Positions 13,811 to 27,241 of a DNA stretch of 32,000 bases are shown piece by piece. The translations under genes were made by a program, and so were the position numbers. Origin of the DNA: Kineococcus radiotolerans SRS30216 = ATCC BAA-149 (GTDB lineage Bacteria > Actinomycetota > Actinomycetes > Actinomycetales > Kineococcaceae); contig NC_009664.2 of NCBI RefSeq assembly GCF_000017305.1, positions 150,001 to 182,000 of the forward strand, read 5' to 3'. How positions within the stretch are numbered: the first letter of the stretch is position 1; each line of letters starts with the position of its first letter. Under the pieces are notes generated by a model. That model ran no database searches. It worked only from the letters and a program-made list of their open reading frames with translations, and was not told the DNA's origin.

Positions 13811-14368
13811 ATGACCACCACGACCACCACCCCCGGCACCACCACCACCGAGGTCGAGGAGCAGATCAAGGCGAACATCGCCAAGTCCATCTCGGAGATC
13901 CCCCACCCCGCCCTGCCCAAGGGCAGCAACATCTACGGTTCCACCAAGATCTTCCCGGACTACCAGGCCGAGGACGGCGAGACCTACTTCACCCTCGTGC
14001 ACGGCATCGCCCACGAGTCCTCGGTCAGCTTCGTCGCCGTCCTGCAGGCGACCCGCGCCCTGCGCAAGGGCTTCGAGTCCGCGATCTACTTCTACGGCCC
14101 CGGGTCGATGAACTGCATCGCCACCCGCGGGTTCCCCACCACGGGCGACTCCGGGTTCCCCGGCGAGCAGAACATCAACGGCGCCCTGGAGACGTTCATC
14201 AGGGAGGGCGGCACCGTCTACTGCTGCCGCTTCGGCCTGGCCCTGCACGGCAACCGCGAGGAGGACCTCATCGAGGGCGTCATCCCCTGCCACCCCCTCG
14301 ACGTGCAGGACGCGATCATCCACTACGCCCGCAAGGGCGCCATCATCAACTCCACCTACATGGTCTGA
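13811..14368 (+). CDS. Sll0783/MSMEG_0572-like nitrogen-starvation-response family protein (function unknown)
   Basis: 185 aa; AGGAG lies 9 nt upstream of the ATG. The sequence (IYGSTKIFPDYQAEDGETYFTLVHG...YFYGPGSMNC...GGTVYCCRFGLALHG) and its first position in the cluster fit the small conserved protein of Nit1C-type clusters. The family assignment is from memory. Very high GC3. Confidence 0.7.
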   Translation: MTTTTTTPGTTTTEVEEQIKANIAKSISEIPHPALPKGSNIYGSTKIFPDYQAEDGETYFTLVHGIAHESSVSFVAVLQATRALRKGFESAIYFYGPGSMNCIATRGFPTTGDSGFPGEQNINGALETFIREGGTVYCCRFGLALHGNREEDLIEGVIPCHPLDVQDAIIHYARKGAIINSTYMV

Positions 14369-14392
14369 TCCCCGCGGGCGAGGGGAACGACG

Positions 14393-15517
14393 ATGAGCTG
14401 CCCGGACGCGATCGGTGCCGAGGACCGGGCCACGGCGGGAACCGTCTCCACTCGGGTCGACGTCGCGATCCGCGGTGTCCGCCTCGCCGCACCCGTGCGC
14501 CGCACCGGCGGAGCCGGTCCCAGCGACGACGGCCACGTGGTCCTCGGCGGTCTGGCCACCGCGCTGCCGCTGCGCTCGGACAGCCCCTACCTCGTCCGCG
14601 AGGGCCGGCTGGTCCGGGAGGACCCCCTCGGCGCCCTGCTGGAGGTCACCGACCTCGGCATCGAGGTGGAACCCGTGCAGCGGCCGAGGTTCTACGACCT
14701 CGCCACCACCGACGGGATCCCCTACGAGAAGATCGCGAAGCTGCACGGCCGCGACGTGCTCGCCACCACCGTCGTGCAGACCTGCTCGCGCTACGCCCCC
14801 GAGGACCGCTGCCGCTTCTGCGCGATCGAGTCCTCGCTGGAGTCGGGATCGACCATCGCGGTCAAGACCCCCGCGATGCTCGCCGAGGTCGCCGAGGCCG
14901 CGGTCCGCCTCGACGGGGTGAAACACGTGGTCATGACCACCGGGACCTCCACCGCCCCCGACCGCGGCGCGCGCCACCTCGCCCGCTGCGTCCGGGCGGT
15001 CACCGAGGCCGTGCCCGGCCTGCCCGTGCAGGTGCAGTGCGAACCCCCCGGTGACCTCGCCACCCTCACCGAGCTGAAGGACGCCGGCGCGAGCTCCATC
15101 GGCATCCACGTCGAGTCCCTCGACGAGGCCGTCCGCCGGCGCTGGATGCCGGGGAAGTCCACCGTCCCGATGGCGGAGTACCGCGCCGCCTGGACCGAGG
15201 CCGTCCGCGTGTTCGGGCGCAACCAGGTCTCCACCTACCTCCTCGTCGGCCTCGGGGAGGACCCCGACGAGCTCGTCGCCGGGGCCGAGGACCTCGTCGA
15301 GCTCGGCGTCTACCCCTTCGTCGTGCCCTTCCGGCCGCTGGCCGGAACCCTCGCGGTCGACGTCGACGGGGCGGGGGCCCCCGGGGCGGCCGTCCTGGAG
15401 GACGTCTCGCGCCGCGTCGCGAAGGCCCTGCGCGCGGGCGGGATGCGCGGTGCGGACCAGATGGCCGGCTGCGCGGCGTGCGGGGCCTGCTCCGTGCTGC
15501 AGAACCTGAACGGCTGA
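14393..15517 (+). CDS. Radical SAM protein (MSMEG_0568-like family)
   Basis: 374 aa. Cys triad CSRYAPEDRCRFC (Cx8Cx2C), then TIM-barrel-like VVMTTG, IGIHVESLD and YLLVGLGE, plus a C-terminal CAACGAC motif. Confidence 0.85.
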   Translation: MSCPDAIGAEDRATAGTVSTRVDVAIRGVRLAAPVRRTGGAGPSDDGHVVLGGLATALPLRSDSPYLVREGRLVREDPLGALLEVTDLGIEVEPVQRPRFYDLATTDGIPYEKIAKLHGRDVLATTVVQTCSRYAPEDRCRFCAIESSLESGSTIAVKTPAMLAEVAEAAVRLDGVKHVVMTTGTSTAPDRGARHLARCVRAVTEAVPGLPVQVQCEPPGDLATLTELKDAGASSIGIHVESLDEAVRRRWMPGKSTVPMAEYRAAWTEAVRVFGRNQVSTYLLVGLGEDPDELVAGAEDLVELGVYPFVVPFRPLAGTLAVDVDGAGAPGAAVLEDVSRRVAKALRAGGMRGADQMAGCAACGACSVLQNLNG

Positions 15518-15530
15518 AGGGGAGCGCCCG

Positions 15531-16970
15531 GTGGAACCACGGACCGCGCACGCCGACCCGCCCCCGCTGGAGGTGTCGATCCTGTCGGGTCTCCCCCGTC
15601 AGGTACCGCGCTTCCGGGTGGAGGTGGCCAGCCCCCAGGACGAGGCCGCGTACCTGACGCTGCGCCGCGACGTCTTCGTGGGGGAACAGGGCCTCTTCAC
15701 CGGCGACGACCGGGACGAGACCGACGACGACCCGCGCCGGCGGGTCCTCGTCGCCCGCACCCCGGAGGGGAGGGTCGTGGGTGGTGTCCGCCTCGCCCCG
15801 GCCACCGCCGGCCCCGACATCGGCTGGTGGCGCGGCAGCCGCCTCGTGGTCGCCACCGGCGCGCGCAGCCTCGGCGGCGTCGGGAGCGCCCTGGTCCGCG
15901 CGGCCTGCGCGCACGCCGAGGAGGTCGGCGCGCTGCGCTTCGAGGCGAGCGTGCAGGCCGCCAACGCGGTGCTGTTCCAGCGGCTGGGCTGGGAACGGGT
16001 GCGCGAGCTGGACCTGCACGGCACGCCGCACGTGCTGGTGCGCTACCCGGTGCAGCGCGTCCAGCGCCTGGTGGACGCCACCAAGGCGCCGCTGGCCGCT
16101 CTGCTCGCCGACCTGGGCGGCGGAGCGGACACCGGGGCGGGAGCGCTCGGTGGGGCGGGGTTCCGCGGTGACGACGGAGCCCCCGTGCCGGGCAGCGACC
16201 TGGTGGCGGCCTGCGACGCGATCGTGCCCTCGATGCTCGAGCGGGACCCGGTGTGGGCCGGCTGGTGCGCGGTGCTGGTCAACCTCAACGACCTCGCGGC
16301 GATGGGGGCCACCCCCGTGGGGATGCTCGACGCGCTCGCCGCCCGCGACGCGCACCAGGCGCAGCGCATCGTGTCCGGTCTCCGCGCCGCCGCCACCGCG
16401 TGGGGCGTCCCGGTCCTGGGTGGACACACGCAGCTGGGGGTCCCCGCGGCCCTGTCCGTCACCGCGCTGGGCCGCACCGGCTCCCCGGTTCCCGCCGGGG
16501 GCGGGCGCGCCGGCGACGAGGTGCGGCTGACGGCCGACCTGGGCGGTGGCTGGCGTCCCGGCTACCGCGGCGCGCAGTGGGACTCCACCTCCACCCGGCG
16601 CGGCGAGGACCTGCGCGCCATGGGCTCCTTCGTGGCCCGTTCGCGTCCCGACGCCGCCAAGGACGTCAGCATGGCCGGTCTCGTCGGCACGCTCGGCATG
16701 CTCGCCGAGGCCAGCGGCACCGGCGCGGAGATCGACGTGGCCGCCGTCCCCCGCCCCGGCGCGGCGAGCGTGGGCGACTGGTTCACCTGCTTCCCCGGGT
16801 TCGCGATGGTGACCGCCTCCCGCCCCGGGTGGGAACCGCAGCACGCAGGACCGGCCACGAGCGCAGCCTGCGGGCGCCTCGTGGCGGGAGAAGGGGTCGG
16901 CCTGCGCTGGCCCGACGGAGAGGTGACCCGGGCCGTCCGGGACACCGTGACGGGATGGGGACCGGCATGA
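15531..16970 (+). CDS. Fusion protein: GNAT N-acetyltransferase + PurM/AIR-synthase-like ATP-binding domain (MSMEG_0567 / Sll0786-Sll0787 type)
   Basis: N-terminal GNAT-like region: YLTLRRDVFVGEQGLF...GVGSALVRAACAHAEEVG...NAVLFQRLGWE. C-terminal PurM-superfamily motifs: GDDGAPV, LVAACDAIVP, NDLAAMGATP, VLGGHT. GTG start is preceded by AAGGGGAG. Confidence 0.85.
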   Translation: MEPRTAHADPPPLEVSILSGLPRQVPRFRVEVASPQDEAAYLTLRRDVFVGEQGLFTGDDRDETDDDPRRRVLVARTPEGRVVGGVRLAPATAGPDIGWWRGSRLVVATGARSLGGVGSALVRAACAHAEEVGALRFEASVQAANAVLFQRLGWERVRELDLHGTPHVLVRYPVQRVQRLVDATKAPLAALLADLGGGADTGAGALGGAGFRGDDGAPVPGSDLVAACDAIVPSMLERDPVWAGWCAVLVNLNDLAAMGATPVGMLDALAARDAHQAQRIVSGLRAAATAWGVPVLGGHTQLGVPAALSVTALGRTGSPVPAGGGRAGDEVRLTADLGGGWRPGYRGAQWDSTSTRRGEDLRAMGSFVARSRPDAAKDVSMAGLVGTLGMLAEASGTGAEIDVAAVPRPGAASVGDWFTCFPGFAMVTASRPGWEPQHAGPATSAACGRLVAGEGVGLRWPDGEVTRAVRDTVTGWGPA

Positions 16971-17908
16971 GCAGCACCGGAGCCGTGGGAACGACCAGAC
17001 TGGCCGCCGTGGCCGGGAACTTCGGCCGCGACCTCGAAGCCACGTACGCGCAGGTGGGCCGCGTCCTGGAGCGGGCCCGGGCCGACGGCACCGGGCTGGT
17101 CGCCTTCCCCGAGGCCTGCCTGGGGGGTTACCTCTCCAGCCTGGGCTCGGCCGAGGACAGGGGGACCGCGGCCAGCCGCCGCGGGCGTTCCGGACCGCCC
17201 GCGCTGACCCTGGACGGGCCGGAACTGCGACGGGTGCAGGAGATGGCCGGGGACGTCGTCGTGGTGGTGGGGATGTGCGAGGACGGCGGCCACGACCTGT
17301 ACAACACCGCCGTGGCGCTGACCGGCGACGGGATCCTCGGGGTGCACCGCAAGGTGCACCAGCCGCTGGGCGAGAACCTCACCTACGCCGCCGGTTCCGC
17401 CTTCGACGCGTTCGACACCCCCGTCGGGCGCATCGGTCTGCAGATCTGCTACGACAAGGCCTTTCCCGAGGCCGCTCGCGCCGCGGCCCTGGACGGGGCC
17501 GCCGTCATCGTCAGCATCTCGGCGTGGCCGGGTTCGCGCACCGCCGCCGCCGCCGACCTGGCCCGGGACCGCTGGCGCCTGCGCTTCGACCTCTACGACC
17601 AGGCCCGGGCGCTGGAGAACCAGGTCGTGTGGGTCGCCGCCAACCAGGCCGGGGAGTTCGGTTCGCTGCGGTTCGTCGGCAACGCGAAGATCGTCGGGCC
17701 CGGCGGGGAGGTCCTGGCCAGCACCGGGACGGACGCGGGCATCGCCGTCGCCGACGTCGACATCGAGCACGAATTGGCGCTCGCGCGGCGAGCCATGTTC
17801 AACCTGCGCGACCGCCGCCCCGATGCCTACGGCGCCGTCGTCGCCCCCAACGCCCACGCCGTCCCCGCTGTCCCCGCCGTTCAGGAGGAGGTCCCCAGCC
17901 TTGCCTGA
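16967..17908 (+). CDS. Nitrilase-superfamily carbon-nitrogen hydrolase (cluster nitrilase, catalytic triad intact)
   Basis: 313 aa; ATGA overlap with the upstream gene. Glu in VAFPEACLGGY (17111-17113), Lys in HRKVH (17351-17353), Cys in LQICYDKAFPE (17447-17449). Confidence 0.9.
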   Translation: MSSTGAVGTTRLAAVAGNFGRDLEATYAQVGRVLERARADGTGLVAFPEACLGGYLSSLGSAEDRGTAASRRGRSGPPALTLDGPELRRVQEMAGDVVVVVGMCEDGGHDLYNTAVALTGDGILGVHRKVHQPLGENLTYAAGSAFDAFDTPVGRIGLQICYDKAFPEAARAAALDGAAVIVSISAWPGSRTAAAADLARDRWRLRFDLYDQARALENQVVWVAANQAGEFGSLRFVGNAKIVGPGGEVLASTGTDAGIAVADVDIEHELALARRAMFNLRDRRPDAYGAVVAPNAHAVPAVPAVQEEVPSLA

Positions 17909-18245
17909 GACGACGTTCACGGTGCGCTGGCCCGACGAGACCGTGCAGCACTGCTACTCCCCCTCCCTCGTCGTCCACGACCACCTCGCGGTGGGCGCCG
18001 AGTACCCCGTCGCGGAGTTCCTCGCCCGCGCCGGCACCGCGCTGACCACCGCGAGCGAGCGGGTGCGGGCGAAGTACGGCATGGCCTGCACCTCGGCGAT
18101 GGCCCAGCTCGACGACCTGACCGCCCGCGCAGCGCGCTACGACCCCGCCGCCCCCGTGCGCGTGCTCGGGCTCGAACCGCCCCTCCCCCCGTCGACGCCC
18201 CCCGGACCCGCGCTGACGCAGCGACCCCCTGGAGCCACCCCGTGA
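17901..18245 (+). CDS. MSMEG_0570-like small conserved protein (function unknown)
   Basis: TTG at 17901 is preceded by AGGAGGAGG (17883-17891). It overlaps the nitrilase stop by 8 nt and is overlapped by the next gene's start (GTGA at 18242). Sequence: LPETTFTVRWPDETVQHCYSPSLVVHDHL...YGMACTSAMAQL. The track's 17823 start would overlap the nitrilase by 86 nt. Confidence 0.6.
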   Translation: MPETTFTVRWPDETVQHCYSPSLVVHDHLAVGAEYPVAEFLARAGTALTTASERVRAKYGMACTSAMAQLDDLTARAARYDPAAPVRVLGLEPPLPPSTPPGPALTQRPPGATP

Positions 18246-19579
18246 ACACCCCGCCGGCCACCACCCGTGAGCACCACCCCGTCGTCGTCGTCGGCGCCGG
18301 CCAGGCCGGGCTCTCCCTCAGCTGGCACCTCACCCGGCGCGGTGTCGACCACGTCCTGCTCGAACGCGGCACGACCGCCCACGAATGGCGCGACGGGCGC
18401 TGGGACGCCTTCACCCTGGTCACCCCCAACTTCCAGTGCCGCCTCCCCGGGTGGAGCTACACCGGGGAGTTCGCCGGCACCGACCCCGACGGGTTCATGG
18501 AACGCGACGAGGTGCACCGGTTCGTCACCGAGTACGCCCGTTCCTTCGCCGCCCCCGTCCGCGAAGGCGTGGCGGTCACCTCCCTGCGCCAGCACGGTGG
18601 CGGCTTCGCCCTCTCCACCAGCGCCGGGGAGTTCAGCGCCGACCAGGTCGTGATCGCCACCGGCGGTTACCACGTACCCGTCGTCCCCGCGGCCGCCGAG
18701 CGCCTCCCGCGCGACGTCGTGCAGTTGCACTCCTCCGCCTACCGCAGCGCGCAGCGGCTGCCCGAGGGCGCGGTCCTCGTCGTGGGCTCCGGGCAGTCCG
18801 GCGCCCAGATCGCCGAGGACCTGCACCTGGCCGGCCGCCGCGTCCACCTGGCCGTGGGGAACGCACCGCGGTGCGCCCGCACCTACCGCGGGCGCGACTG
18901 CATCGCGTGGCTGGAGGACATGGGGACCTACGACGTCACCGCCGGCGAGGTCCCCGGAGGCGCAGCCGCGCAGGAGAAGACCAACCACTACATGACCGGG
19001 CGCGACGGAGGTCGCGACATCGACCTGCGCGCCTTCGCCCGGGAGGGCATGGGCCTCCACGGGCGGCTGGAGGACGTGCGCGACGGCGTCGCCCGCTTCG
19101 CGCCGACGCTGGAGCAGGCGCTGGACCACGCCGACTCGGTGATGGAGTCCATCAAGGACGTCATCGACCGCCACATCAGCGCCCGGGGCATCGACGCGCC
19201 GAACGAGGCGCGCTACGTCCCCGTGTGGCGCCCCGAGCAGGAAGTCACCGAGCTCGACCTCGCCGCGGCGGGCATCACCTCGGTCGTGTGGAGCGTCGGC
19301 TACCGCGCGGACCACCGGTGGGTCGAGCTCGGGGTCTTCGACGGGCGCGGGCGCCCCCGCCAGACCCGCGGGGTCACCGGCACGCCGGGCCTCTTCTTCC
19401 TCGGGCTGCCGTGGATGCACACCTGGGGTTCGGGTCGCTTCGCCGGCATCGCCCGCGACGCGGAGTTCCTCGCCGACCAGCTGACCGCGGGCGCGGCTCG
19501 CCTCCCTCCGCCGTCCTCCCCCGCGTCCCGCCCCGCCTCGACGGGCCTCGCCGCGTCGCACCTCACCGCAGCCCGCTGA
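18242..19579 (+). CDS. FAD/NAD(P)-binding flavoprotein oxidoreductase (MSMEG_0569-like, class-B monooxygenase-like)
   Basis: 445 aa with two dinucleotide-binding motifs, VVVVGAGQAGLS and VLVVGSGQSGAQIA, and a C-terminal GLFFLGLPW. Confidence 0.85.
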   Translation: MNTPPATTREHHPVVVVGAGQAGLSLSWHLTRRGVDHVLLERGTTAHEWRDGRWDAFTLVTPNFQCRLPGWSYTGEFAGTDPDGFMERDEVHRFVTEYARSFAAPVREGVAVTSLRQHGGGFALSTSAGEFSADQVVIATGGYHVPVVPAAAERLPRDVVQLHSSAYRSAQRLPEGAVLVVGSGQSGAQIAEDLHLAGRRVHLAVGNAPRCARTYRGRDCIAWLEDMGTYDVTAGEVPGGAAAQEKTNHYMTGRDGGRDIDLRAFAREGMGLHGRLEDVRDGVARFAPTLEQALDHADSVMESIKDVIDRHISARGIDAPNEARYVPVWRPEQEVTELDLAAAGITSVVWSVGYRADHRWVELGVFDGRGRPRQTRGVTGTPGLFFLGLPWMHTWGSGRFAGIARDAEFLADQLTAGAARLPPPSSPASRPASTGLAASHLTAAR

Positions 19580-19581
19580 CC

Positions 19582-20694
19582 GTGCGGATCGCGCTCACGA
19601 CGTACTCCACGAAACCTCGCGGCGGCGTCGTCCACACCCTGGCGCTGGCCGAGGCGCTCGTCGAGGCCGGCGCCGAGGTGAGCGTCTGGACGCTGGGCCG
19701 CAGCGGTGACGCCGGCTTCTTCCGCCCCGTCGCCCCGCAGGTCGACGTCCGCGTCGTACCGTTCCCGGCTCGCGAGGGCGAGAGCGTCGGGGACCGCATC
19801 CTGCGCTCCATCGACGTCCTGCGGGCGGGGTTCGACCCCGCCGGCTACGACGTCGTCCACGCCCAGGACTGCATCAGCGCCAACGCCGTCGGGCGCTGCG
19901 TCCGCACCGTGCACCACCTGGACACGTTCACCACCCCCGCGCTGGCCGCCTGCCACGAACGGGCGATCGTCGAACCGTACGCGCACGTGTGCGTCTCCCG
20001 CGCGGTGGCCGAGGAACTGCGGGAGGGCTGGGGACTGGACCCCGTCGTCATCCCCAACGGCGTGCAGGCGCAACCCTTCACCGACGCGGCGGGCGACGCC
20101 CCCGCCGCAGCGGCGGCCCGCCGGCACTGGCAGGACCGGTTCGGGCGCTACGTCGTCGCCGTCGGCGGCATCGAACCGCGCAAGGGCAGCACCGACCTGC
20201 TGCGGGCCGTCGCCCTCCTGCGCCGGGAACTCCCCGACGTCGCCCTGGTGGTGGCCGGCGGGGAAACCCTCTTCGACTACCGGGACTACCGCGCCGAGTT
20301 CGACCGCCTCGCCGCCGAGCTCGACGTCGCCCCGCACGTCCTGGGCCCGGTCCCCACCGCGGACCTGCCCTCCCTGGTGGCGGGCGCCGCGGCCATGGGT
20401 TTCGTCTCCACCAAGGAGGGTTTCGGGTTGGCCGCCATGGAGGGTCTCGCGGCCGGGATCCCGCTGGTGACGCGGGACCTGCCCGTCCTGCGGGAGGTCT
20501 TCGACGGCGCCGCGGCCTTCGCCGTGGACCCCGCCTCCATCGCGACCGCCCTGCGCGACGCCGTGCTCCGCCCGGACTCCGACGTCCTGGTCGCGCGCCG
20601 GGCCGTCGGAGCCGATCTCGTCGCCCGGCACACGTGGGCGGCGGCCGCCCGAGCGCACCTGGAGTTCTACGCGGCTCTGGCCGAGTTCCCGTGA
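19582..20694 (+). CDS. GT-B (GT4-like) glycosyltransferase (MSMEG_0565-like)
   Basis: 370 aa from GTG 19582, 2 nt after the flavoprotein stop. MRIALTTYSTKPRGGVVHTLALAEAL-type N-terminus, and the EGFGLAAMEGLAAGIPLV retaining-GT motif (E-x7-E). Confidence 0.85.
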   Translation: MRIALTTYSTKPRGGVVHTLALAEALVEAGAEVSVWTLGRSGDAGFFRPVAPQVDVRVVPFPAREGESVGDRILRSIDVLRAGFDPAGYDVVHAQDCISANAVGRCVRTVHHLDTFTTPALAACHERAIVEPYAHVCVSRAVAEELREGWGLDPVVIPNGVQAQPFTDAAGDAPAAAAARRHWQDRFGRYVVAVGGIEPRKGSTDLLRAVALLRRELPDVALVVAGGETLFDYRDYRAEFDRLAAELDVAPHVLGPVPTADLPSLVAGAAAMGFVSTKEGFGLAAMEGLAAGIPLVTRDLPVLREVFDGAAAFAVDPASIATALRDAVLRPDSDVLVARRAVGADLVARHTWAAAARAHLEFYAALAEFP

Positions 20695-20748
20695 CGCCGG
20701 TGAGGACGACCGCCGGTGACGCGATCCGCCGGTGGGCGCAGGCCGGTG
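20695..20748. repeat. Phased direct repeats of (C)GCCGGTG at 16, 16 and 14 bp spacing in an intergenic gap
   Basis: cgccggtga at 20695, cgccggtga at 20711, cgccggtgg at 20727, ggccggtg at 20741. They lie in the 142-bp spacer between the glycosyltransferase stop and the second CN-hydrolase start. Confidence 0.7.
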
Positions 20749-20836
20749 CGGGAACAGGCGCTGACCCGCGCGGGCACCCGCGAGGCGCACCGCAGCCAGT
20801 GGTGCCCTGGCGCGCCGTCGACGGGAGGAACGTGCG

Positions 20837-21694
20837 GTGACGACGATCGGTGGGGTGTCTCGTCCTCTCCGGATCGCCGCGGCCGCGGCGCACTTCGGCC
20901 GAGACCTCGATCGGGGACTGGAGAAGGCGCTCGGCATCGTCGCCGCCGCCCGGCGCGGCGGCATCGACCTGCTGGTCCTGCCCCACGGGACGCTCGGTGG
21001 TTACCTCTCCGACCTCGAGGACCCGCGCAGCGATGAGGTTCCCCCGGCGCTGTCCGCCGACGCCCCGCAGATCGCCGCCGTCGCCGCGGCCGCGGGGCCG
21101 GTGACGGTGTGCCTGGGGTACACCGAGGTGGACGTCCTGCACGGGTACCCGTGCTACTTCAGCGCGGCGGTGTGCCTCACCGGCGACGGTGTCCTGGGTC
21201 GGCACCGGAAGGTGCACCAGCCCGCGGGTGAGGCCAAGGTGTTCTCCGCCGGTGACGGTTTCACCGCGTTCGACACCCCCGTGGGGCGGCTGGGGATGCT
21301 CATCGACTACGACAAGACGTTCCCCGAGGCGGGCCGGTCGCTGGCTCTGGCCGGGGCCCGGACGATCGCCTGCCTCTCCGCGTGGCCGGCCAGCGTCACC
21401 GACCGCGCCTCGCGCCTGCTCGCGGACCGTCAGTCCCGGTTGTTCGACCTCTACGACAGTGCCCGGGCGGCGGAGAACCAGGTCGTCTGGGTCTCCTCGA
21501 ACCAGACCGGGATCCAGGGGAACCTGCGTTTCCTCGGGCAGGCCAAGGTCGTCGGCCCCGGGGGCGACGTGCTGGCGCGGACCGGCTCCAAGGGCGCCCT
21601 GGCGGAGGTGCGGCTCGACGTGGAGCACGAGGTGACCCGGGCGCGCAGGACGTTGCACCACCTGGCGGAACGGCGCTCCGACACCTACCGGTAG
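20837..21694 (+). CDS. Carbon-nitrogen hydrolase paralog lacking the catalytic Glu and Cys (probable pseudoenzyme)
   Basis: 285 aa, collinear with the 16967 nitrilase (RHRKVHQP, NQVVWV and RFLGQAKVVGPGG are shared). However, FPEACLGGY is LPHGTLGGY (His codon 20984-20986) and ICYDKAFPE is LIDYDKTFPE (Asp codon 21305-21307). Confidence 0.85.
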   Translation: MTTIGGVSRPLRIAAAAAHFGRDLDRGLEKALGIVAAARRGGIDLLVLPHGTLGGYLSDLEDPRSDEVPPALSADAPQIAAVAAAAGPVTVCLGYTEVDVLHGYPCYFSAAVCLTGDGVLGRHRKVHQPAGEAKVFSAGDGFTAFDTPVGRLGMLIDYDKTFPEAGRSLALAGARTIACLSAWPASVTDRASRLLADRQSRLFDLYDSARAAENQVVWVSSNQTGIQGNLRFLGQAKVVGPGGDVLARTGSKGALAEVRLDVEHEVTRARRTLHHLAERRSDTYR

Positions 21695-21696
21695 TT

Positions 21697-22060
21697 TCCC
21701 GGCGCTGGAGAACCACCCCCGAAACACCGGGGTTCGAGGTCCGCAACTCCCTCCACCACGAGTTGCGGAGAAGCTGAGGCGGTTCGAGGTCGTACCCGCG
21801 GTCGAGGATGAGGTGCATGGGCGGGTACCAGGAGAGCTGTCGCAGCGGGTGCGGTCCCTGCTGCCGCTGCGCCCGTCGCACCGCTTCCGACGTCCCGGGC
21901 GACGGCCCGGGACGACCGCGCCCCGCCGGCCGGCGTCGTCCCGGTGTTGAAGATCACCTGCTGGCGGCTGCGGCCGGCGTGCTCGCCGATCCGCCACCGC
22001 GAACCACCCACCCCGTGGTGGCAGGAACGGTGAACCACCGCAGAGATCGGGGCCGCGTCC
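21697..22060 (-). mobile_element. Degenerate IS5/IS4-family DDE transposase remnant (frameshifted, truncated at both ends)
   Basis: One minus-strand frame reads GRSRQQVIFNTGTTPAGG, comparable to the GSKHHVITDAGGTPLAV block of IS5-like transposases. A second frame reads GRRPGRRKR and a third reads HLILDRGYDLEP (the DRGYD motif around the second catalytic Asp). No intact ORF and no downstream catalytic Glu region. It abuts the cluster's last stop codon. Confidence 0.4.
21740..21769. other. Perfect 10-bp-stem hairpin flanked by an 11-bp direct repeat
   Basis: tccgcaactc (21740-21749) pairs with gagttgcgga (21760-21769), with a 10-nt loop. ggttcgaggtc occurs at 21731-21741 and again at 21781-21791. 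The hairpin is 46 nt downstream of the second CN-hydrolase stop, so it may act as a terminator. Confidence 0.3.
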
Positions 22061-22754
22061 GACGTGTCCGCTGACGCATCTGATGGAAGGCCGTCACGAG
22101 CCCCCGCCTTGATTCAAGGCTCACCTGCTGTTGCATTCCTCGAGAACCGACACCGAAGGGACCACGAAACCAGCCTCACCGGATGGGAGAACCCAGCGGT
22201 GGAGCGACAGCCGCTTCGTCAGCGCTCGCGGTCAACGCCGTGAGCAGTCGCCTCCACGACCGGACGACCACCCGCCACGACGCACCCGATCTCCGACGGC
22301 ACCGGTGCGGCGGCCGAGCGCGCCGTCCTCGCCCTGACCACCGCACCCTGCACAGCCGGGCCCTGAACGGCGGCCCCACCGTCGGCGCCGCCGTGTCGAG
22401 CCCACCGTCCTGCGCCCACCGAACCGCACCTGAGCAACCCCACCCGTACGACCTCCCCGTCCGCGAGCGCGGGCTCAGCGGCCGCGGGAGCGGTGACGCG
22501 ATCGACGGGCGCGATCGACGACCTCGCCGGGGGCGGTGGTCTCGGCGGCGACGCTGCGGGGACGTCCTCGCGCACCGGAGGGGCGGACCGGGCCCGCGTC
22601 GTGCCCCACATCCCGTGCCATCCACGCGCCGGTGTGGCAGGCTCAGCGCAGAGCAGAACGTGACAGCCCGCCCAGCAGGTGAACACCCCGGCAGCACCAG
22701 CCGGGTTGACGAACCTCGGGCGAGCCGGGATCTGGAGCAGGCAGGAGTGACGAC

Positions 22755-23330
22755 GTGCCCCGCACCACCACCCGCGGCGATCGCACGGCCACCGGCATCG
22801 ACACCCGCCGCGCCGCCACCGTCGGCTTGACCTCCTTCGCCACCCTCACCCTGATCCCCCTGCTCACCCACGCCAAGCCCGGCGAACGCGCTCTCCTCCT
22901 GCTCGCCGCGGTCCCCACCGCCGTACTCCTCGGCTGCCTCGCCGGCTACGCCGCCGCCACCGCACCCGGCTCGGCGACCCGCCTCGACGTCGGGCAGCTG
23001 CACGCCGCGCAGCAGGGCATCGAGGTGCGGGCCGCTCACCTGCAGGCCGCCCGGCACGGCGCGTCCACCGCCGCTCAGCCCTCTGCACCGGTCCTCGAAC
23101 TCGTCAGCGACCCCGTTCCCCCGTCGGGGACCGGGTCGCCCGTGGGGAACGGTCCCCTCGCCGCCCTCCCCCGCCCCCCCGCGGACCAGCACCACGAGCT
23201 GCAGCTCGGGCTCCGCCTGGTGCCCGCCCCCACCCGGGAGGCTCCCGGCGCCGCTGCCGGAACTGCCACCAGCCGACCCGGCGACCGCGATCGCCACCTC
23301 ACCCTCGTCGTCACCCACCCCGCCAGCTGA
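22755..23330 (+). CDS. Hypothetical membrane protein (two predicted TM helices, Pro/Ala-rich tail)
   Basis: 191 aa. GTG is preceded by AGGAG (22742-22746). Very high GC3 in this frame. Hydrophobic segments VGLTSFATLTLIPLLTHA and ALLLLAAVPTAVLLGCLAGYAAA. I recognise no family. Confidence 0.55.
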   Translation: MPRTTTRGDRTATGIDTRRAATVGLTSFATLTLIPLLTHAKPGERALLLLAAVPTAVLLGCLAGYAAATAPGSATRLDVGQLHAAQQGIEVRAAHLQAARHGASTAAQPSAPVLELVSDPVPPSGTGSPVGNGPLAALPRPPADQHHELQLGLRLVPAPTREAPGAAAGTATSRPGDRDRHLTLVVTHPAS

Positions 23331-23532
23331 TCCAGCAGCCCGACCCAGCTCGAACGCCCGTCCCGGCGAGCGCAGCACCGCCGGGGTCACCTCCACGGAC
23401 CCGCCCAGTGCAGCAGAGCACCGAGCCCGGGGACACGGCCCACGAACCAGCGGGCCCGTCAGCGCACCTCTCCAGCCGCGTCGCCGCCACCTCTCGCACC
23501 CCACCCCTGGACTCCCCACCGGAGGACCCGCC

Positions 23533-23898
23533 ATGACCCAGATCCCCACCCACGAACCCGCGGACGCGGGCCACGTCGCAGGCCCCGGTGACGCCCGCGC
23601 GGGCTTCGAGATCACTCCCTCGACCGGCGCCGGGCGCGGCGGCGCGGGGGGCGACGTCGAGGACCTCGCCACCCGCGCCGCCCAGGCCCGCCAGACCAAC
23701 GCCCACCGCGCCACCTACGCCGCCGAAGCCCTCCACCGCCACGGCCAGGTCAGCCACAGCGACGCCGACGACATGCAGCGGGCCCTCGTCGAGCTGCTCA
23801 CCGACCTGCACCACCTCTGCGACACCTGCGACCTCGAACTCGCCCCCCTCTACGAAGCCGCCACCCTCATCCACACCCGCGAGACCCAGGCCGCCTAG
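23533..23898 (+). CDS. Hypothetical small protein (121 aa, acidic and His-rich)
   Basis: ATG is preceded by GGAGGA (23521-23526). GC3 is near 95%. The C-terminal half, ALVELLTDLHHLCDTCDLELAPLYEAATLIHTRE, looks structured. No recognisable domain. Confidence 0.6.
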   Translation: MTQIPTHEPADAGHVAGPGDARAGFEITPSTGAGRGGAGGDVEDLATRAAQARQTNAHRATYAAEALHRHGQVSHSDADDMQRALVELLTDLHHLCDTCDLELAPLYEAATLIHTRETQAA

Positions 23899-24134
23899 CC
23901 GGACCCCGTCACGCCCACCACGCCGGAGCCGCGCAGCACGGCGACACCTGAGCCGAGCGCGCTGCACCCGCGCCACCCCGCCAGCCGGTCTCAAGCGGAA
24001 CACGTCGGCAGACGGAGGCCACGGCCTCGCCCCCCCCGGCACGTCCTCCCCGGACACGACCAGTGCCGGTGGTCGTGGTGGTGACGTGCGTGGTCGCCTG
24101 CCGACCGGGTGAACGTCCCCGGTGAACCCGGCCC

Positions 24135-25529
24135 GTGTCGGTGGCGGTCGATACCGTCGAAATCGTGATCACCCCCTGGAGCGTCGAGCAGGTGCTCGCG
24201 CTGGCTCCCGACGCCTCGAGCGCCGCCGCTGGGCGCAAGCTCAGCGCGCCGGCCCCGTGGTCGCAGACCGGGGTCCTCGGTCCCGCCGGAGGGACGGGCG
24301 AGGCGCTGTGGGGGTTGTGCCAGGGGTCGGGCAAGACCCCGTACCAGACGGTCGTCGACCTGACCGGCCCGGCGTACAAGTGCTCCTGCCCCAGCCGCAA
24401 GTTCCCCTGCAAGCACGCTCTGGGCCTGCTGCTGCTGTGGGCCGGGGGAGCCGTCCCCGAAGCGAGCGCACCCGCCGCCTTCGGCGAGGCGTGGCTGTCC
24501 GCCCGCGCCGAGAAGGCCACGCACCCCGTGCCCCCCGCCCGGCCCGGCGCGCCGCCCGCGGACCCGGCCGCCGCCGCCCGCCGCGTCGAGCAGCGCGCCG
24601 CCCGCACCTCCGCGGGGGTCGAGGAGCTCTCGCGGTGGCTGCGCGACCAGGCCCGGACGGGGCTGGCGGGTGCGGACCACGCCGGCTACCAGCGCACCGA
24701 CCCGGTCGCCGCGCGCCTGGTCGACGCGCAGGCCGGTGCGCTCGCCACCGCCGTCCGCCGGCTCGCGCGGGTCGCGGTCAGCGGGCCGGACTGGTCCGCG
24801 CGCCTGCTGGAGGAGCACGCGATGCTCCACCTGCTGACCGCCGCCCACGCCCGCCTGGACACGCTGCCGGCGCCGCTGGCCGCCACCGTCCGCTCCCGCG
24901 TCGGTTACCCGGTGCGCACCGAGGACGTCCTCGCCGAGCCCGCCGTGCGCGACCGGTGGAGCGTGCTGGACCTGCGCGACCACGTCGAGGACCGGCTGGT
25001 CACCCGACGGGCCCACCTCGTGGGTGAGCGCACCGGGCGCACCGCGGTCGTGCTGTCCTTCGCCCCGCCCGGGCGGCCCCTGGACGCCTCCCTGGTGCCC
25101 GCCACCAGCATCGAGGCCGACCTGCACTTCCACCCCGGCGCGCACCCGCTGCGCGCGGTCGTCGGCGCCCGCCACGGCGACCCGGGCCCGCTGGGCGTCG
25201 TCGCGGCCGAGACGGTCGGGGCCGCGCACGCCCGGTGGGCCGGCGCGCTGGCCGCGGACCCGTGGTTGGGCGAACTGCCCGTGGTGCTCGCCGACGTCGC
25301 CCTCGCCGCACCCGTGGGGCACGCACCGACCACGCGCACCGCACCGGAACGGGACGGGTGGTCCCTGGTGGACACCGCCGGGCACGCCGCACCTCTCGCC
25401 GGGTCCGAGGGGGTGTGGACGGTGCTGGCCGTCACCGGAGGGCTGCCCTGCACGGTCGCCGGGGACTGGACCCCGGACGGGCTGCGGTTGAGCGCCGCCG
25501 TGACCGGGGAAGGGCTGGTCCGGCTGTGA
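24135..25529 (+). CDS. SWIM zinc-finger family protein
   Basis: 464 aa. CxCx6CxH SWIM signature YKCSCPSRKFPCKHALGLLLLW (24381-24416). N-terminal WSVEQVLALAPDASSAAAGRKL is typical of actinobacterial SWIM proteins that head this operon type. Confidence 0.85.
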   Translation: MSVAVDTVEIVITPWSVEQVLALAPDASSAAAGRKLSAPAPWSQTGVLGPAGGTGEALWGLCQGSGKTPYQTVVDLTGPAYKCSCPSRKFPCKHALGLLLLWAGGAVPEASAPAAFGEAWLSARAEKATHPVPPARPGAPPADPAAAARRVEQRAARTSAGVEELSRWLRDQARTGLAGADHAGYQRTDPVAARLVDAQAGALATAVRRLARVAVSGPDWSARLLEEHAMLHLLTAAHARLDTLPAPLAATVRSRVGYPVRTEDVLAEPAVRDRWSVLDLRDHVEDRLVTRRAHLVGERTGRTAVVLSFAPPGRPLDASLVPATSIEADLHFHPGAHPLRAVVGARHGDPGPLGVVAAETVGAAHARWAGALAADPWLGELPVVLADVALAAPVGHAPTTRTAPERDGWSLVDTAGHAAPLAGSEGVWTVLAVTGGLPCTVAGDWTPDGLRLSAAVTGEGLVRL

Positions 25530-27241
25530 CGACACCCGACGCCGCTGACGCCGGCCCCGCTCCCGTCGACGTCGCTCCCGTCGACACCGCTCCCGTCGGC
25601 ACCGGCGGAACCGCCGGCGGAGCGGGCTGGAACGCGCTCGTGGGGGCCGCTCTACTGGGCACCGACCGCCGCCCCGCCGAGCTCACCGCGCTGCCCGGCC
25701 CCGTCGCCGCGGCGCTGTCGGGGGTGCGGACCGCGACGGGCGGAGCGGACGCCGCGACCACCCTGCTCGACGCCGCCGCCCTGCTGACGACCTACCGCCG
25801 CGCCGGGCGTGCCCCGCTGCCCGGGCGCGCTCCCCTCCCCCCGGCGCCGAGCAGCGGTGAGCACCCGGTGCCGGCGGCCGCCGCCGTCCGCCTGGGCTCG
25901 CTGCTGGCCCGGCTGGACCCGGCCACCCGCGGCGGTGGTGGCAGCGGTCGAGCGGATCACCTGCTGCGGACGTGGCTGCACCTGGCGGAGGAGGCCGGCT
26001 GCACCGTCCCGCCACCGCGGTTGCCCGCCCTGCTGGACCTGGCCGTGCGGCGCACCGACGTCGCCGCGGCCCTGGCCCCCGTGCTCGGTGCGCGCGGCTG
26101 GTGGCTGGCCGCGCTGCGCGAGGACTGGAACGCCGCTGTCGGCCCCCACCGCGTCCCCGCTCAGCGCGACGGGCAGGAACAGGCCGCACCCGGACCGACG
26201 GCACAGGAACCGCCCGCACGGGAACCGAGCAGCACCTGGGAGCACGGCACCAGCGCCGAGCGCCGCGCCTGGTTGGGGCGGCTGCGCCACGGGGATCCGG
26301 CGGCGGCCCGCGCCGTGCTCCTGGCCTCGGCGTGGCGTTCGGAACGGGCGGAGGACCGCGTGGCCTTCGTCGCGGTGCTGGCCGACGGTCTCGCGGACGA
26401 GGACGAGGAGCTCCTCGAACGTGCCCGCGCCGACCGCAGCCTGGACGTGCGCCGCGACGCCGAACGGCTGCTCGCGCGGCTGCCGGCGGCGGCGTGGACC
26501 CAGCAGGTGCGCCGAGCCGCCACCGCCGCCGTGCACCTGGAGCGGCGCCGGCTGCGACGCACCCTCGTCGTCACCCTGCCCGACCCCGCCGACCCCGCTC
26601 TGCCCACCGTGAGCACCGGCAACGCCCCCGCCGGCGTCGGCCCGGGCACCTGGGCGCTGCAGCACCTCGTCGCGCTCACCCCGCCCGCCGCCTGGGAGGA
26701 GGCGCTCGGTGAGAGCGCCGAGCAGCTGGCGGCGCTGCCCGTCGACGGCGGTCTCGGCCCGGAACTGCACGGGGCCTGGGTGCAGGCCACGGTCCTGCAC
26801 CGCGACGCGCGCTGGGCACGGGCGCTGCTCGCCGCCGGTCGCCGCGCCGAGCACGACACGACGCTGCTGTCCGTGCTGCCGGCGGCCGAGCGGGTCACGG
26901 CCGTCGCGGGGCTCGTCGCCGCGGCCACGCGCACCGGGACCGGTGACGACGGCACCAGCGGCCGCGTCGGGGCGGCGGTCGCGTCCTGTCCCGCCCCGTG
27001 GCCGCAGCCGCTGGCCGACGCGGTCCTCGGCTGGCTCCTCGGCGCCGCCCGGCGCAGCCGCTGGGTGACCCACGACCTGCTGGAGCGGGCCGCGCACGCG
27101 CTGCCCGCCACCGCCGCCGGCGCCGACGCCCTCCGCACCGCCATCGACGCCCTGCCCGCCGACACCCCCTGGCGGGCCGCCCTGAGCGACGTCGCCGACA
27201 CCGTGGCCGAACGCCACCAGATGCTCGAGGAGCTCCGTTGA
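25526..27241 (+). CDS. Conserved hypothetical protein (DUF5691-like), Ala/Leu/Arg-rich, probably helical
   Basis: 571 aa from GTG 25526 (GTGA overlap with the SWIM stop). High GC3. No catalytic motif is visible. The DUF assignment comes from its position in the conserved SWIM/AAA/VWA operon and is from memory. Confidence 0.7.
   Translation: MTTPDAADAGPAPVDVAPVDTAPVGTGGTAGGAGWNALVGAALLGTDRRPAELTALPGPVAAALSGVRTATGGADAATTLLDAAALLTTYRRAGRAPLPGRAPLPPAPSSGEHPVPAAAAVRLGSLLARLDPATRGGGGSGRADHLLRTWLHLAEEAGCTVPPPRLPALLDLAVRRTDVAAALAPVLGARGWWLAALREDWNAAVGPHRVPAQRDGQEQAAPGPTAQEPPAREPSSTWEHGTSAERRAWLGRLRHGDPAAARAVLLASAWRSERAEDRVAFVAVLADGLADEDEELLERARADRSLDVRRDAERLLARLPAAAWTQQVRRAATAAVHLERRRLRRTLVVTLPDPADPALPTVSTGNAPAGVGPGTWALQHLVALTPPAAWEEALGESAEQLAALPVDGGLGPELHGAWVQATVLHRDARWARALLAAGRRAEHDTTLLSVLPAAERVTAVAGLVAAATRTGTGDDGTSGRVGAAVASCPAPWPQPLADAVLGWLLGAARRSRWVTHDLLERAAHALPATAAGADALRTAIDALPADTPWRAALSDVADTVAERHQMLEELR

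What the first reader, a model, noticed from the sequence alone, without database searches (positions are those of the whole stretch)
20837..21694. Second CN-hydrolase paralog has lost the nucleophile Cys and the catalytic Glu (C to D, E to H)
The two cluster paralogs align without gaps around the active-site motifs. The 16967 copy has FPE, HRKVH and ICYDKAFPE. The 20837 copy has LPH, HRKVH and LIDYDKTFPE.

The nitrilase-superfamily mechanism requires the Cys thiol to form the thioimidate or acyl-enzyme. This intact, high-GC3 and evidently maintained gene therefore cannot be a conventional nitrilase or amidase. It could be a regulatory or structural partner in the homo-oligomeric spirals that nitrilases form, a substrate- or product-binding protein, or an enzyme with Asp/His chemistry.

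It is also set apart by a 142-bp spacer that carries phased repeats.
Basis: seen in the sequence. Interest (0 to 1): 0.7.

Follow-up and report, generated by a model that had tools for sequence, protein, structure and literature searches.

The report
Cys-to-Asp nitrilase-fold paralog, conserved
The second carbon-nitrogen-hydrolase gene of this nitrogen-starvation cluster belongs to a widespread, strongly conserved actinobacterial family (by synteny the one called "aliphatic amidase" MSMEG_0566) in which the catalytic cysteine is always aspartate, so it cannot be the thiol amidase its annotation implies.

Summary
The gene at 20837-21694 encodes a 285-aa CN_hydrolase-fold protein (NitB). It is 49% identical to the cluster's canonical paralog NitA (16967-17908). 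NitB has His50, Lys125, Glu132 and Asp157 where NitA has Glu, Lys, Glu and Cys.

This is not a sequencing error or decay. Asp is invariant in every cluster-type ortholog examined: 120 and 98 database homologs, and 33 metagenome loci chosen independently of NitB. The 69-genome set is also invariant but overlaps the first set. NitB is more conserved than NitA, with dN/dS of 0.14-0.23.

NitB sits in the MSMEG_0565-0572 ("gpr") cluster in 80 of 80 genome loci. It is usually translationally coupled to the MSMEG_0565 glycosyltransferase. By synteny it is the MSMEG_0566 family.

The Glu-to-His change is not a family trait. That position is Asp in about 85-90% of members and drifts to H, Y, F, G, A or N. 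The 142-bp spacer and its short 16-bp repeats are specific to this lineage.

Best reading: a selected, non-thiol paralog that keeps a functional pocket and most likely does not hydrolyse. A true Asp-based catalyst is not excluded. No paper I could search mentions the missing cysteine.

The parts
20837..21694 (+). NitB: 285-aa CN_hydrolase-fold protein with a His-Lys-Glu-Asp site. By synteny it is the MSMEG_0566-family member of the gpr cluster.
   Evidence: PF00795 scores 93.1 bits against a cutoff of 23.2. The AF2 model has pLDDT 94.8. Foldseek gives TM about 0.8 to amidases and carbamoylases. GC3 is 0.93. dN/dS is 0.14-0.23.
21305..21307 (+). GAC codon for Asp157, at the position of the nucleophile Cys.
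   Evidence: Codon and alignment. Asp is invariant in 120/120, 98/98, 33/33 and 69/69 orthologs; the 69-genome set overlaps the 120.
20984..20986 (+). CAC codon for His50, at the position of the first catalytic Glu. This is a lineage-specific variant of a relaxed site.
   Evidence: Searches give D 100, H 18, Y 2 and F 1 among 121 sequences, and D 63, H 4 and Y 2 among 69 genomes. Divergent representatives also have G, A and N.
21209..21232 (+). Lys125 (21209-21211) and Glu132 (21230-21232), the retained catalytic Lys and second Glu.
   Evidence: Both are invariant in the 69 orthologs, and all 98 further homologs have D-K-E-D.
20695..20836 (+). 142-bp intergenic spacer between the glycosyltransferase stop and the NitB start. 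It holds a 16-nt x2.5 repeat (20695-20734), four CCGGTG sites (20697-20748), a 12-nt x2.2 repeat (20764-20791) and the Shine-Dalgarno GGGAGGA (20823-20829).
   Evidence: The spacer is present in L087 and absent in K. rubinsiae L081, where the two genes abut. No promoter, terminator or Rfam match was found.
16967..17908 (+). NitA: the canonical paralog with Glu49-Lys129-Glu136-Cys161. By synteny it is the MSMEG_0571 type.
   Evidence: All 55 complete NitA hits in the metagenome loci are EKEC.
19582..20694 (+). MSMEG_0565-family GT4 glycosyltransferase, the usual downstream neighbour of NitB. In this window the order is swapped.
   Evidence: TIGR04047 scores 485 bits against a cutoff of 260. The start was located. 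NitB is followed by 0565 in 78 of 80 loci, and the NitB stop overlaps the 0565 start in most of them.
13811..19579 (+). The rest of the cluster: MSMEG_0572-like (13811-14368), radical SAM 0568 (14393-15517), GNAT+AIRS 0567 (15531-16970), NitA, 0570 (about 17901-18245) and flavoprotein 0569 (18242-19579).
   Evidence: All score above the NCBIfam curated cutoffs.

Best explanation
NitB is the window's member of a conserved actinobacterial protein family. By synteny this is the family of M. smegmatis MSMEG_0566, annotated 'aliphatic amidase'. The family arose once from an amidase-like CN-hydrolase and fixed Asp in place of the nucleophile Cys. It has been an obligate component of the GlnR-controlled nitrogen-starvation and peroxide-resistance cluster (MSMEG_0565-0572) ever since, always alongside the canonical Cys-bearing paralog NitA.

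Shown:
- It has the nitrilase-superfamily fold.
- The site is His/Asp-Lys-Glu-Asp.
- Asp, Lys and the second Glu are invariant.
- Constraint at the first Glu position is relaxed.
- Purifying selection is stronger than on NitA.
- It is linked to, and usually translationally coupled with, the GT4 glycosyltransferase.

Inferred from the established E-K-E-C mechanism of the superfamily: without a thiol and without a fixed general base, NitB cannot form the thioimidate or acyl-thioester. It is therefore not a conventional nitrilase or amidase.

The mechanism I commit to is inferred, not shown. NitB is a non-hydrolytic, pseudoenzyme-type subunit that has kept its ligand pocket. The Asp157 carboxylate, held by Lys125 and Glu132, binds the pathway intermediate or a cationic group on it rather than attacking it. 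The protein works within the NitB-glycosyltransferase module and alongside NitA, for example by presenting or sequestering the substrate or product.
For: - Fold and residue mapping.
- Asp invariance: 120/120, 98/98 mycobacterial homologs, all DKED, and 33/33 NitB in loci retrieved through the unrelated 0572 gene. The D clade is monophyletic in an NJ tree.
- Selection: mean pairwise identity is 0.737 for NitB and 0.649 for NitA over 69 genomes. Invariant columns number 95 of 285 for NitB and 81 of 313 for NitA. dN/dS is 0.14-0.23, like the other cluster genes.
- Relaxed first-Glu site: D, H, Y and F among orthologs and G, A and N in divergent members, all single-nucleotide neighbours of GAC or of each other. 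Phe cannot act as a base.
- Obligate pairing with a canonical paralog: NitA(EKEC) plus NitB are both present in 27 of 27 sufficiently long independent loci and NitA in 77 of 80 genome loci.
- Module with the glycosyltransferase: the order NitB then 0565 holds in 78 of 80 loci, with ATGA or GTGA overlaps in most.
- Many NitB-only invariant residues are charged and lie on helices (R26, K30, R190, R201, D204, K252, E265, R268). This fits a conserved interaction surface.
- In M. smegmatis both hydrolase genes are induced by nitrogen starvation, and the operon as a unit gives peroxide resistance.
Against: - Strict invariance of Asp, rather than Ala, Ser or Gly, together with Lys and the second Glu, is what one would expect if these side chains still did chemistry. 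Scaffold-only pseudoenzymes usually let such residues drift.
- No activity, binding or complex data exist.
- The mirror-tree partial correlation between NitB and NitA is only 0.08, against 0.36 for NitB and 0565 (weak method).
- The M. smegmatis protein itself was not retrieved. Orthology to MSMEG_0566 rests on gene order and on Mycolicibacterium homologs that are about 70% identical.
Confidence: 0.5

Rival explanations
1. NitB is a genuine enzyme that uses Asp157 as a carboxylate nucleophile or general base in the old nucleophile elbow. It would catalyse a reaction other than thiol-mediated amide or nitrile hydrolysis. Examples are attack on an activated acyl group (thioester, acyl-phosphate or acyl-adenylate), on an sp3 or anomeric carbon, or water activation. 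The reaction would be a step coupled to the adjacent glycosyltransferase.
For: Asp157, Lys125 and Glu132 are invariant in all cluster orthologs, and NitB is conserved more strongly than the canonical paralog. A carboxylate needs no activating base, which would explain the relaxed constraint at the first Glu position. One relative (L082) has an adenylate-forming AMP-binding gene inserted directly upstream of NitB and overlapping it. The cluster also encodes an ATP-utilising AIRS-like domain. From general knowledge, alpha/beta-hydrolases use Ser, Cys or Asp at the same elbow for different chemistries, and class III CoA-transferases use an Asp anhydride.
Against: No nitrilase-superfamily enzyme with an Asp nucleophile is known to me, and none was found in the literature searches. 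The first-Glu position includes Phe, Gly and Ala in some members. Divergent D-type relatives have also lost Lys, replaced by Gln or Arg, which is the pattern of progressive catalytic decay. There is no substrate candidate.
Confidence: 0.3
2. NitB is a purely structural partner that co-assembles with NitA into a hetero-oligomer, in the way Poaceae NIT4A and NIT4B form heteromers. It would tune NitA's activity or specificity without binding substrate itself.
For: The two paralogs always co-occur and are adjacent in a divergent cluster type. From general knowledge, superfamily members are obligate dimers or oligomers through the helices that follow the nucleophile. In NitB these helices (157-171 and 198-214) are almost fully invariant, and they carry two of the few fixed A/B switches, W203 to Q199 and R206 to L202. 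A heteromeric nitrilase precedent is cited.
Against: Invariance of the pocket residues Asp, Lys and Glu is not explained. The mirror-tree signal between NitB and NitA is the weakest of all pairs, at 0.08. Gene order keeps NitB with the glycosyltransferase and keeps NitA with 0570 and 0569.
Confidence: 0.17
3. The substitutions are a sequencing or assembly error, or the gene is a decaying pseudogene.
For: None beyond the absence of the canonical residues.
Against: Each substitution needs two base changes. An independent contig carries the same residues. The frame is intact with GC3 0.93. dN/dS is 0.14-0.23. Asp is conserved in more than 250 orthologs.
Confidence: 0.01

Closest known systems
[quoted passage not shown]
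   Same: It occupies the same position in the same eight-gene cluster. The order 0572-NitA-0570-0569-0568-0567-NitB-0565 in the Mycobacterium and Mycolicibacterium loci among the 16 with this order matches the order implied by the MSMEG locus-tag numbering and gene products in the papers. Mycolicibacterium homologs are about 70% identical to NitB, and all are D-K-E-D. The gene is induced by nitrogen starvation.
   Different: The window protein has His rather than Asp at the first Glu position. Here the gene lies after the glycosyltransferase rather than before it, separated by a 142-bp spacer. The M. smegmatis sequence itself was not retrieved. The literature treats the protein as an amidase and does not mention the missing Cys.
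Canonical nitrilase-superfamily amidases and carbamoylases (P. horikoshii amidase PH0642, D-carbamoylase, N-carbamoylputrescine amidohydrolase, H. pylori CN hydrolase 6mg6)
   Same: The fold is the same, with Foldseek TM 0.78-0.84. The motifs around Lys and the second Glu and the '..YDKxFPE' elbow are shared.
   Different: The nucleophile Cys is replaced by Asp and the general-base Glu by His or Asp. Sequence identity is only 20-25%.
NitA, the in-cluster paralog (MSMEG_0571 type)
   Same: It is 49% identical, lies in the same operon and has the same length class. Nearly all pocket-framing motifs are shared.
   Different: NitA keeps E-K-E-C and has its own invariant residues (R191, C104, F231, R111, W203, R206) that are lost or variable in NitB. 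NitA has a C-terminal tail of about 25 aa that NitB lacks.
Nit6803/NitC nitrilase of the proteobacterial and cyanobacterial Nit1C cluster (TIGR04048)
   Same: The surrounding genes are homologous: 0572/sll0783, radical SAM, GNAT, AIRS, 0570 and the flavoprotein.
   Different: It belongs to a different branch of the superfamily. NitA scores 39.8 bits against a cutoff of 502.6, and NitB does not hit. As described in 2005, Nit1C clusters have one hydrolase and in some cases a glycosyltransferase, but no Cys-less second copy.
Paralog pairs in which one copy has lost the nucleophile: Poaceae NIT4A/NIT4B heteromers, and type II PKS ketosynthase with its chain-length factor (Cys to Gln)
   Same: It may work in the same way: an active enzyme plus a neighbouring paralog that is retained by selection. 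The NIT4 precedent is cited. The KS/CLF example comes from general knowledge.
   Different: Both NIT4 partners keep Cys. KS/CLF belongs to an unrelated fold. No complex has been shown for NitA and NitB.

Membership tests
Nitrilase superfamily (Pfam CN_hydrolase, PF00795) | Sequence match to the family profile above the gathering score | tested here: met
   93.1 bits against a cutoff of 23.2, covering residues 14-260.
Nitrilase superfamily (Pfam CN_hydrolase, PF00795) | Alpha-beta-beta-alpha sandwich fold | tested here: met
   AF2 model pLDDT 94.8. Foldseek TM 0.78-0.84 and probability 1.00 to solved amidases and carbamoylases.
Nitrilase superfamily (Pfam CN_hydrolase, PF00795) | Catalytic Glu-Lys-Glu-Cys tetrad | tested here: not met
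   The site is His50-Lys125-Glu132-Asp157. The family-wide pattern is D/H-K-E-D. NitB is therefore a structural member but not a catalytic one.
Nit6803-family nitrilase of Nit1C (TIGR04048) | Score above the curated cutoff of 502.6 bits | tested here: not met
   NitB gives no hit at E <= 1e-3. NitA scores 39.8 bits.
Aliphatic amidase (AmiE type, NF009802), the name given to MSMEG_0566 | Score above the curated cutoff, and a catalytic Cys | tested here: not met
   NitB gives no hit. NitA scores 27 bits against a cutoff of 427. NitB has no Cys at the nucleophile position.
MSMEG_0565-0572 (gpr) cluster component | Encoded within a cluster whose other genes pass the dedicated NCBIfam models | tested here: met
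   TIGR04044, 04043, 04050/04045, 04042, 04046 and 04047 all score above cutoff in the window. NitB orthologs lie in the cluster in 80 of 80 genome loci and in 27 of 27 long independent metagenome loci.
MSMEG_0565-0572 (gpr) cluster component | GlnR-dependent induction by nitrogen starvation | not testable with these tools
   This is shown only for M. smegmatis. No clear GlnR box was recognised by eye upstream of 13811.
Pseudoenzyme | Homolog of an enzyme family that lacks an essential catalytic residue yet is under purifying selection | tested here: met
Pseudoenzyme | Demonstrated absence of catalytic activity | not testable with these tools
   This needs a biochemical assay.

The most novel reading that the evidence does not exclude
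NitB and MSMEG_0566 proteins would be the first nitrilase-fold enzymes to use an aspartate carboxylate at the nucleophile elbow. This would parallel the Ser/Cys/Asp versatility of alpha/beta-hydrolases. They would catalyse a non-thiol step, such as acyl or glycosyl transfer or hydrolysis of an activated intermediate, that is coupled to the GT4 glycosyltransferase. That step would belong to the synthesis of the still unknown, possibly sulfur-containing, metabolite made by the nitrogen-starvation and peroxide-resistance cluster.
Probability: 0.27. Interest if true: 0.85.

Novelty: new variant of a known kind. Interest (0 to 1): 0.55.

Why it matters
The MSMEG_0565-0572 (Nit1C-like) cluster is widespread. 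It is strongly induced by nitrogen starvation and confers peroxide resistance in mycobacterial biofilms, yet its product and chemistry have been unknown since the related Nit1C cluster was described in 2005.

Transcriptome papers count MSMEG_0566 as a C-N-bond-cleaving 'aliphatic amidase'. Showing that the whole family carries Asp instead of the catalytic Cys, and is more conserved than its active paralog, corrects that annotation. It removes one presumed ammonia-releasing step from models of the pathway.

It also gives sharp, cheap experiments: D157 point mutants, co-purification with MSMEG_0571 and MSMEG_0565, and ligand fishing.

For enzymologists of the nitrilase superfamily, this is a large natural clade in which to test whether a carboxylate can replace the thiol or whether this is a dedicated pseudoenzyme.

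Tried and rejected
- A MAFFT localpair run timed out. The first hmmalign column mapping was offset by trimming. It was redone by motif anchoring.
- Displaced nucleophile: I asked whether another Cys could substitute. C92 and C113 are conserved but are also shared with a Cys-bearing sister clade. They sit at predicted cross-strand positions of the 90-101/104-115 hairpin, several residues from the active-site end, and each is individually replaceable by Ala. C106 and C179 are not conserved. This idea was rejected.
- Fusion proteins as Rosetta-stone evidence: P0131 (669 aa, NitB plus glycosyltransferase) and P0224 (AIRS plus CN hydrolase) match only fragments of each domain and look like frameshifted gene calls. 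I did not use them.
- Genomic context of the Cys-bearing sister clade and of divergent D-type members: the contigs were too short or the genes stood alone, so this was uninformative.
- Mirror-tree co-evolution mostly recovers the sub-operon linkage blocks. It is weak evidence.
- The spacer gave no sigma-70-like promoter or terminator and no Rfam family.
- The AF2 model coordinates are not exposed, so distances between His50, Lys125, Glu132 and Asp157 could not be measured.
- I did not try a linker-fused AF2 run as a substitute for a multimer model.
- The M. smegmatis sequence itself did not appear among the listed homologs.
- Literature searches for a Cys-less nitrilase-superfamily clade or pseudoenzyme found nothing relevant.
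Full report
**The object.** The window is high-GC DNA (71-80% GC). The nearest named relatives of the gene are Kineococcus species: K. rubinsiae at 86% and K. sp. SYSU DK003 at 75%.

From 13811 to 21694, all on the + strand, lie the genes of the MSMEG_0565-0572 cluster. Each passes its dedicated NCBIfam model:
- MSMEG_0572/Sll0783-like (258 bits against a cutoff of 110)
- radical SAM 0568 (533 against 304)
- GNAT+AIRS 0567 (528 against 312)
- 0570 (126 against 80)
- flavoprotein 0569 (674 against 498)
- GT4 glycosyltransferase 0565 (485 against 260)

Two CN_hydrolase (PF00795) genes complete the cluster. NitA lies at 16967-17908 and NitB at 20837-21694.

NitB and NitA are 49% identical (E 4e-79) and align without gaps through the catalytic motifs. 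NitA has Glu49, Lys129, Glu136 and Cys161. NitB has His50 (CAC, 20984-20986), Lys125, Glu132 and Asp157 (GAC, 21305-21307).

A phmmer alignment to the solved Pyrococcus horikoshii amidase confirms the mapping. I number that enzyme's catalytic residues E42, K113, E120 and C146 from memory, and names the deposited chains as the C146A variant. His50 aligns with the Glu of the chain's VLPE motif, Lys125 and Glu132 with its RK...E motif, and Asp157 with the Ala at the mutated Cys position.

Both substitutions need two base changes from any Glu or Cys codon. An independent metagenome contig that is 99% identical (L087) has the same residues. The gene has a GGGAGGA Shine-Dalgarno 7 nt before its GTG start and GC3 of 0.93, like its neighbours. 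Sequencing error and pseudogene status are excluded.

**The Cys-to-Asp change defines a family.**
- Among the best 120 database homologs (66-99% identity; Kineococcus, Aeromicrobium, Nocardioides, Mycolicibacterium, Rhodococcus, Gordonia, Williamsia, Nakamurella and others), the Cys column is Asp in 120 of 120, Lys is invariant, and the second Glu is present in all but one.
- A second search seeded with a Mycolicibacterium member added 98 proteins, all D-K-E-D.
- In a search of 50%-identity representatives, the D-type sequences share the motif 'IDYDKTF'.
- In an NJ tree that includes full-length representatives, the D-type sequences form one clade. That clade is sister to a Cys-bearing clade, with NitA orthologs next. 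This points to a single origin.
- Some divergent D-type representatives have also lost Lys, replaced by Gln or Arg, and carry Ala at the first Glu position. One of them (P0130) sits on a short contig that shows no gpr-cluster genes.

**The Glu-to-His change does not define the family.** The first-Glu column is Asp in 100, His in 18, Tyr in 2 and Phe in 1 of 121 sequences. Over 69 genomes it is Asp in 63, His in 4 and Tyr in 2. Gly, Ala and Asn appear in divergent representatives.

His occurs in the Kineococcus group, in scattered other sequences, and in a divergent metagenomic cluster type. All of these residues are single-nucleotide neighbours of GAC or of each other. This site is under relaxed constraint, whereas Asp157, Lys125 and Glu132 are fixed.

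**Selection.** The comparison covers 69 genomes that carry all eight genes.

| Protein | Mean pairwise identity | Invariant columns |
|---|---|---|
| NitB | 0.737 | 95 of 285 |
| NitA | 0.649 | 81 of 313 |
| Radical SAM 0568 | 0.744 | 122 of 374 |

Against three Kineococcus-group relatives, NitB has dN/dS of 0.14-0.23, within the range of the other cluster genes.

Only six positions are fixed differently in the two paralog families: C161 to D157, W203 to Q199, R206 to L202, V to L, M to L, and D to E. NitA has invariant residues that NitB has released: R191, C104, F231 and R111. NitB has its own invariant and mostly charged set: R26, K30, H123, D189, R190, R201, D204, K252, E265, R268 and H275.

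**Structure.** AF2 with a 66-sequence alignment gives pLDDT 94.8 and pTM 0.93. Foldseek finds amidases and carbamoylases of the nitrilase superfamily at TM 0.78-0.84 and 20-25% identity.

**Genomic context.**
- In 80 genome loci found through NitB, the gene is always inside the cluster. The two dominant orders are 0572-0568-0567-NitA-0570-0569-NitB-0565 (49 loci) and 0572-NitA-0570-0569-0568-0567-NitB-0565 (16 loci).
- The second order is seen in the Mycobacterium and Mycolicibacterium loci. It matches the order implied by the MSMEG locus-tag numbering and gene products in the papers. This makes NitB the MSMEG_0566 type and NitA the MSMEG_0571 type.
- NitB is followed by the glycosyltransferase in 78 of 80 loci. 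In most of them the NitB stop overlaps the 0565 start as ATGA or GTGA.
- As a sample independent of NitB, I retrieved 80 metagenome loci through the 0572 gene. All 27 with at least 8.5 kb downstream contain both NitA (EKEC) and NitB (29 D-K-E-D and 4 H-K-E-D across the whole sample). A more divergent cluster type has NitA and NitB adjacent.
- The cluster also occurs on Rhodococcus megaplasmids, where PGAP names both genes only 'carbon-nitrogen hydrolase family protein'.
- The window and K. rubinsiae have the unusual order 0565 then NitB. K. sp. SYSU DK003 has NitB ahead of the cluster. One relative has an AMP-binding gene inserted between 0565 and NitB.

**The spacer.** The spacer 20695-20836 (142 bp) contains a 16-nt repeat in 2.5 copies (TRF score 57), four same-strand CCGGTG sites within 52 nt, and a 12-nt repeat in 2.2 copies.

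It is present, with five substitutions, in the 99%-identical contig L087. It is absent in K. rubinsiae, where the two genes abut. Its 5' end resembles the sequence around the NitB start: 15 nt at 87% identity, 137 nt apart. This fits a local duplication or insertion at the junction. No promoter, terminator or Rfam match was found. It is a lineage-specific feature of unknown, possibly no, significance.

**Comparison with what is known.** The M. smegmatis papers list MSMEG_0566 as 'aliphatic amidase' and MSMEG_0571 as 'carbon-nitrogen hydrolase'. Both are induced by nitrogen starvation through GlnR. The operon as a whole gives peroxide resistance and raises the NADPH/NADP ratio, and individual gene roles were not resolved.

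The Nit1C description of 2005 covers proteobacterial and cyanobacterial clusters that have a single true nitrilase and sometimes a glycosyltransferase. NitA and NitB are not of that nitrilase family. No searchable paper mentions a Cys-less member.

**Interpretation.** The established superfamily mechanism needs the Cys thiol and the first Glu as its base. NitB has neither in fixed form, so it is not a conventional amidase or nitrilase. This is an inference from established knowledge.

NitB is as strongly selected as the cluster's core enzymes and always accompanies a canonical paralog, so it is a functional non-canonical component. I favour, at 0.5, a non-hydrolytic subunit with a preserved ligand pocket that acts with the glycosyltransferase and NitA. 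The relaxed first-Glu site, including Phe, and the further decay in divergent relatives fit a pseudoenzyme trajectory. The fixed Asp-Lys-Glu triad fits retained ligand binding.

The main rival, at 0.3, is real Asp-based catalysis. The absolute invariance of Asp makes this a serious possibility. A purely structural NitA partner (about 0.17) is weakened by the conserved pocket and by the lack of a NitA-NitB co-evolution signal (weak). Error or decay is excluded.

**Verdict.** It is a new variant of a known kind: a conserved Asp-for-Cys clade of the nitrilase superfamily, currently mis-annotated. Interest is moderate to high because it bears on a long-unsolved cluster and is directly testable.

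Noticed in passing
window 21700-22750: About 1 kb immediately downstream of NitB shows no codon-position GC periodicity (GC3 about 0.65-0.8 in all frames) and no Rfam hit. The region 22000-24000 has strong C>G and A>T skew. An apparently non-coding stretch of this length is unusual for a genome this dense.
   Followed up: partly
window 17906-18242: After NitA's TGA stop, the same reading frame stays open up to the start of the 0569 flavoprotein. This is the layout that PMC6039565 interpreted in M. smegmatis as a Sec read-through selenoprotein. Here the intervening translation is Arg/Pro-rich gibberish, and the real MSMEG_0570-family gene is in another frame (TIGR04042, 125.8 bits). Read-through looks like a high-GC open-frame artefact.
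   Followed up: partly
window 12883-13704 (+); L081 2317-3213: An Amidohydro_2 (metal-dependent hydrolase) gene sits directly upstream of the 0572 gene, both in the window and in K. rubinsiae. It may be a lineage-specific addition to the cluster.
   Followed up: no
L082 5051-6502: In an 82%-identical relative, an AMP-binding (adenylate-forming) gene is inserted between the glycosyltransferase and NitB and overlaps the NitB start by 17 nt.
   Followed up: no
window 13811-20694 (whole cluster): The cluster's composition recalls the logic of low-molecular-weight-thiol biosynthesis. It has a GT4 with weak MshA/BshA similarity, a GNAT, an amidase-like NitA, a radical SAM with LipA/LipS2 similarity, a 0572 protein that PMC6039565 describes as DsrE-family, and a flavoprotein with weak YpdA/ArsO similarity. 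This would fit the peroxide-resistance phenotype, but it is speculative.
   Followed up: no
NitB residues 92 and 113 (window 21110-21112 and 21173-21175): A Cys pair is conserved in about 97% of NitB orthologs and in the Cys-bearing sister clade, but is hydrophobic in NitA and other CN hydrolases. It lies at predicted cross-strand partner positions of a beta-hairpin. Single Cys-to-Ala replacements occur, so it is not an obligatory disulfide.
   Followed up: partly
L128, L130, L154 and L150, L159, L160, L164, L168 (metagenome loci): A more divergent version of the cluster (NitA and NitB 56-63% identical to the window's) has different gene orders in which NitA and NitB are directly adjacent, and in some the flavoprotein lies upstream of 0572. 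This is consistent with a tandem-duplication origin of the pair.
   Followed up: partly
window 24135-25529 and 26998-28380: A SWIM zinc-finger protein and a MoxR/AAA_5 ATPase lie downstream. They are unrelated to the cluster.
   Followed up: no
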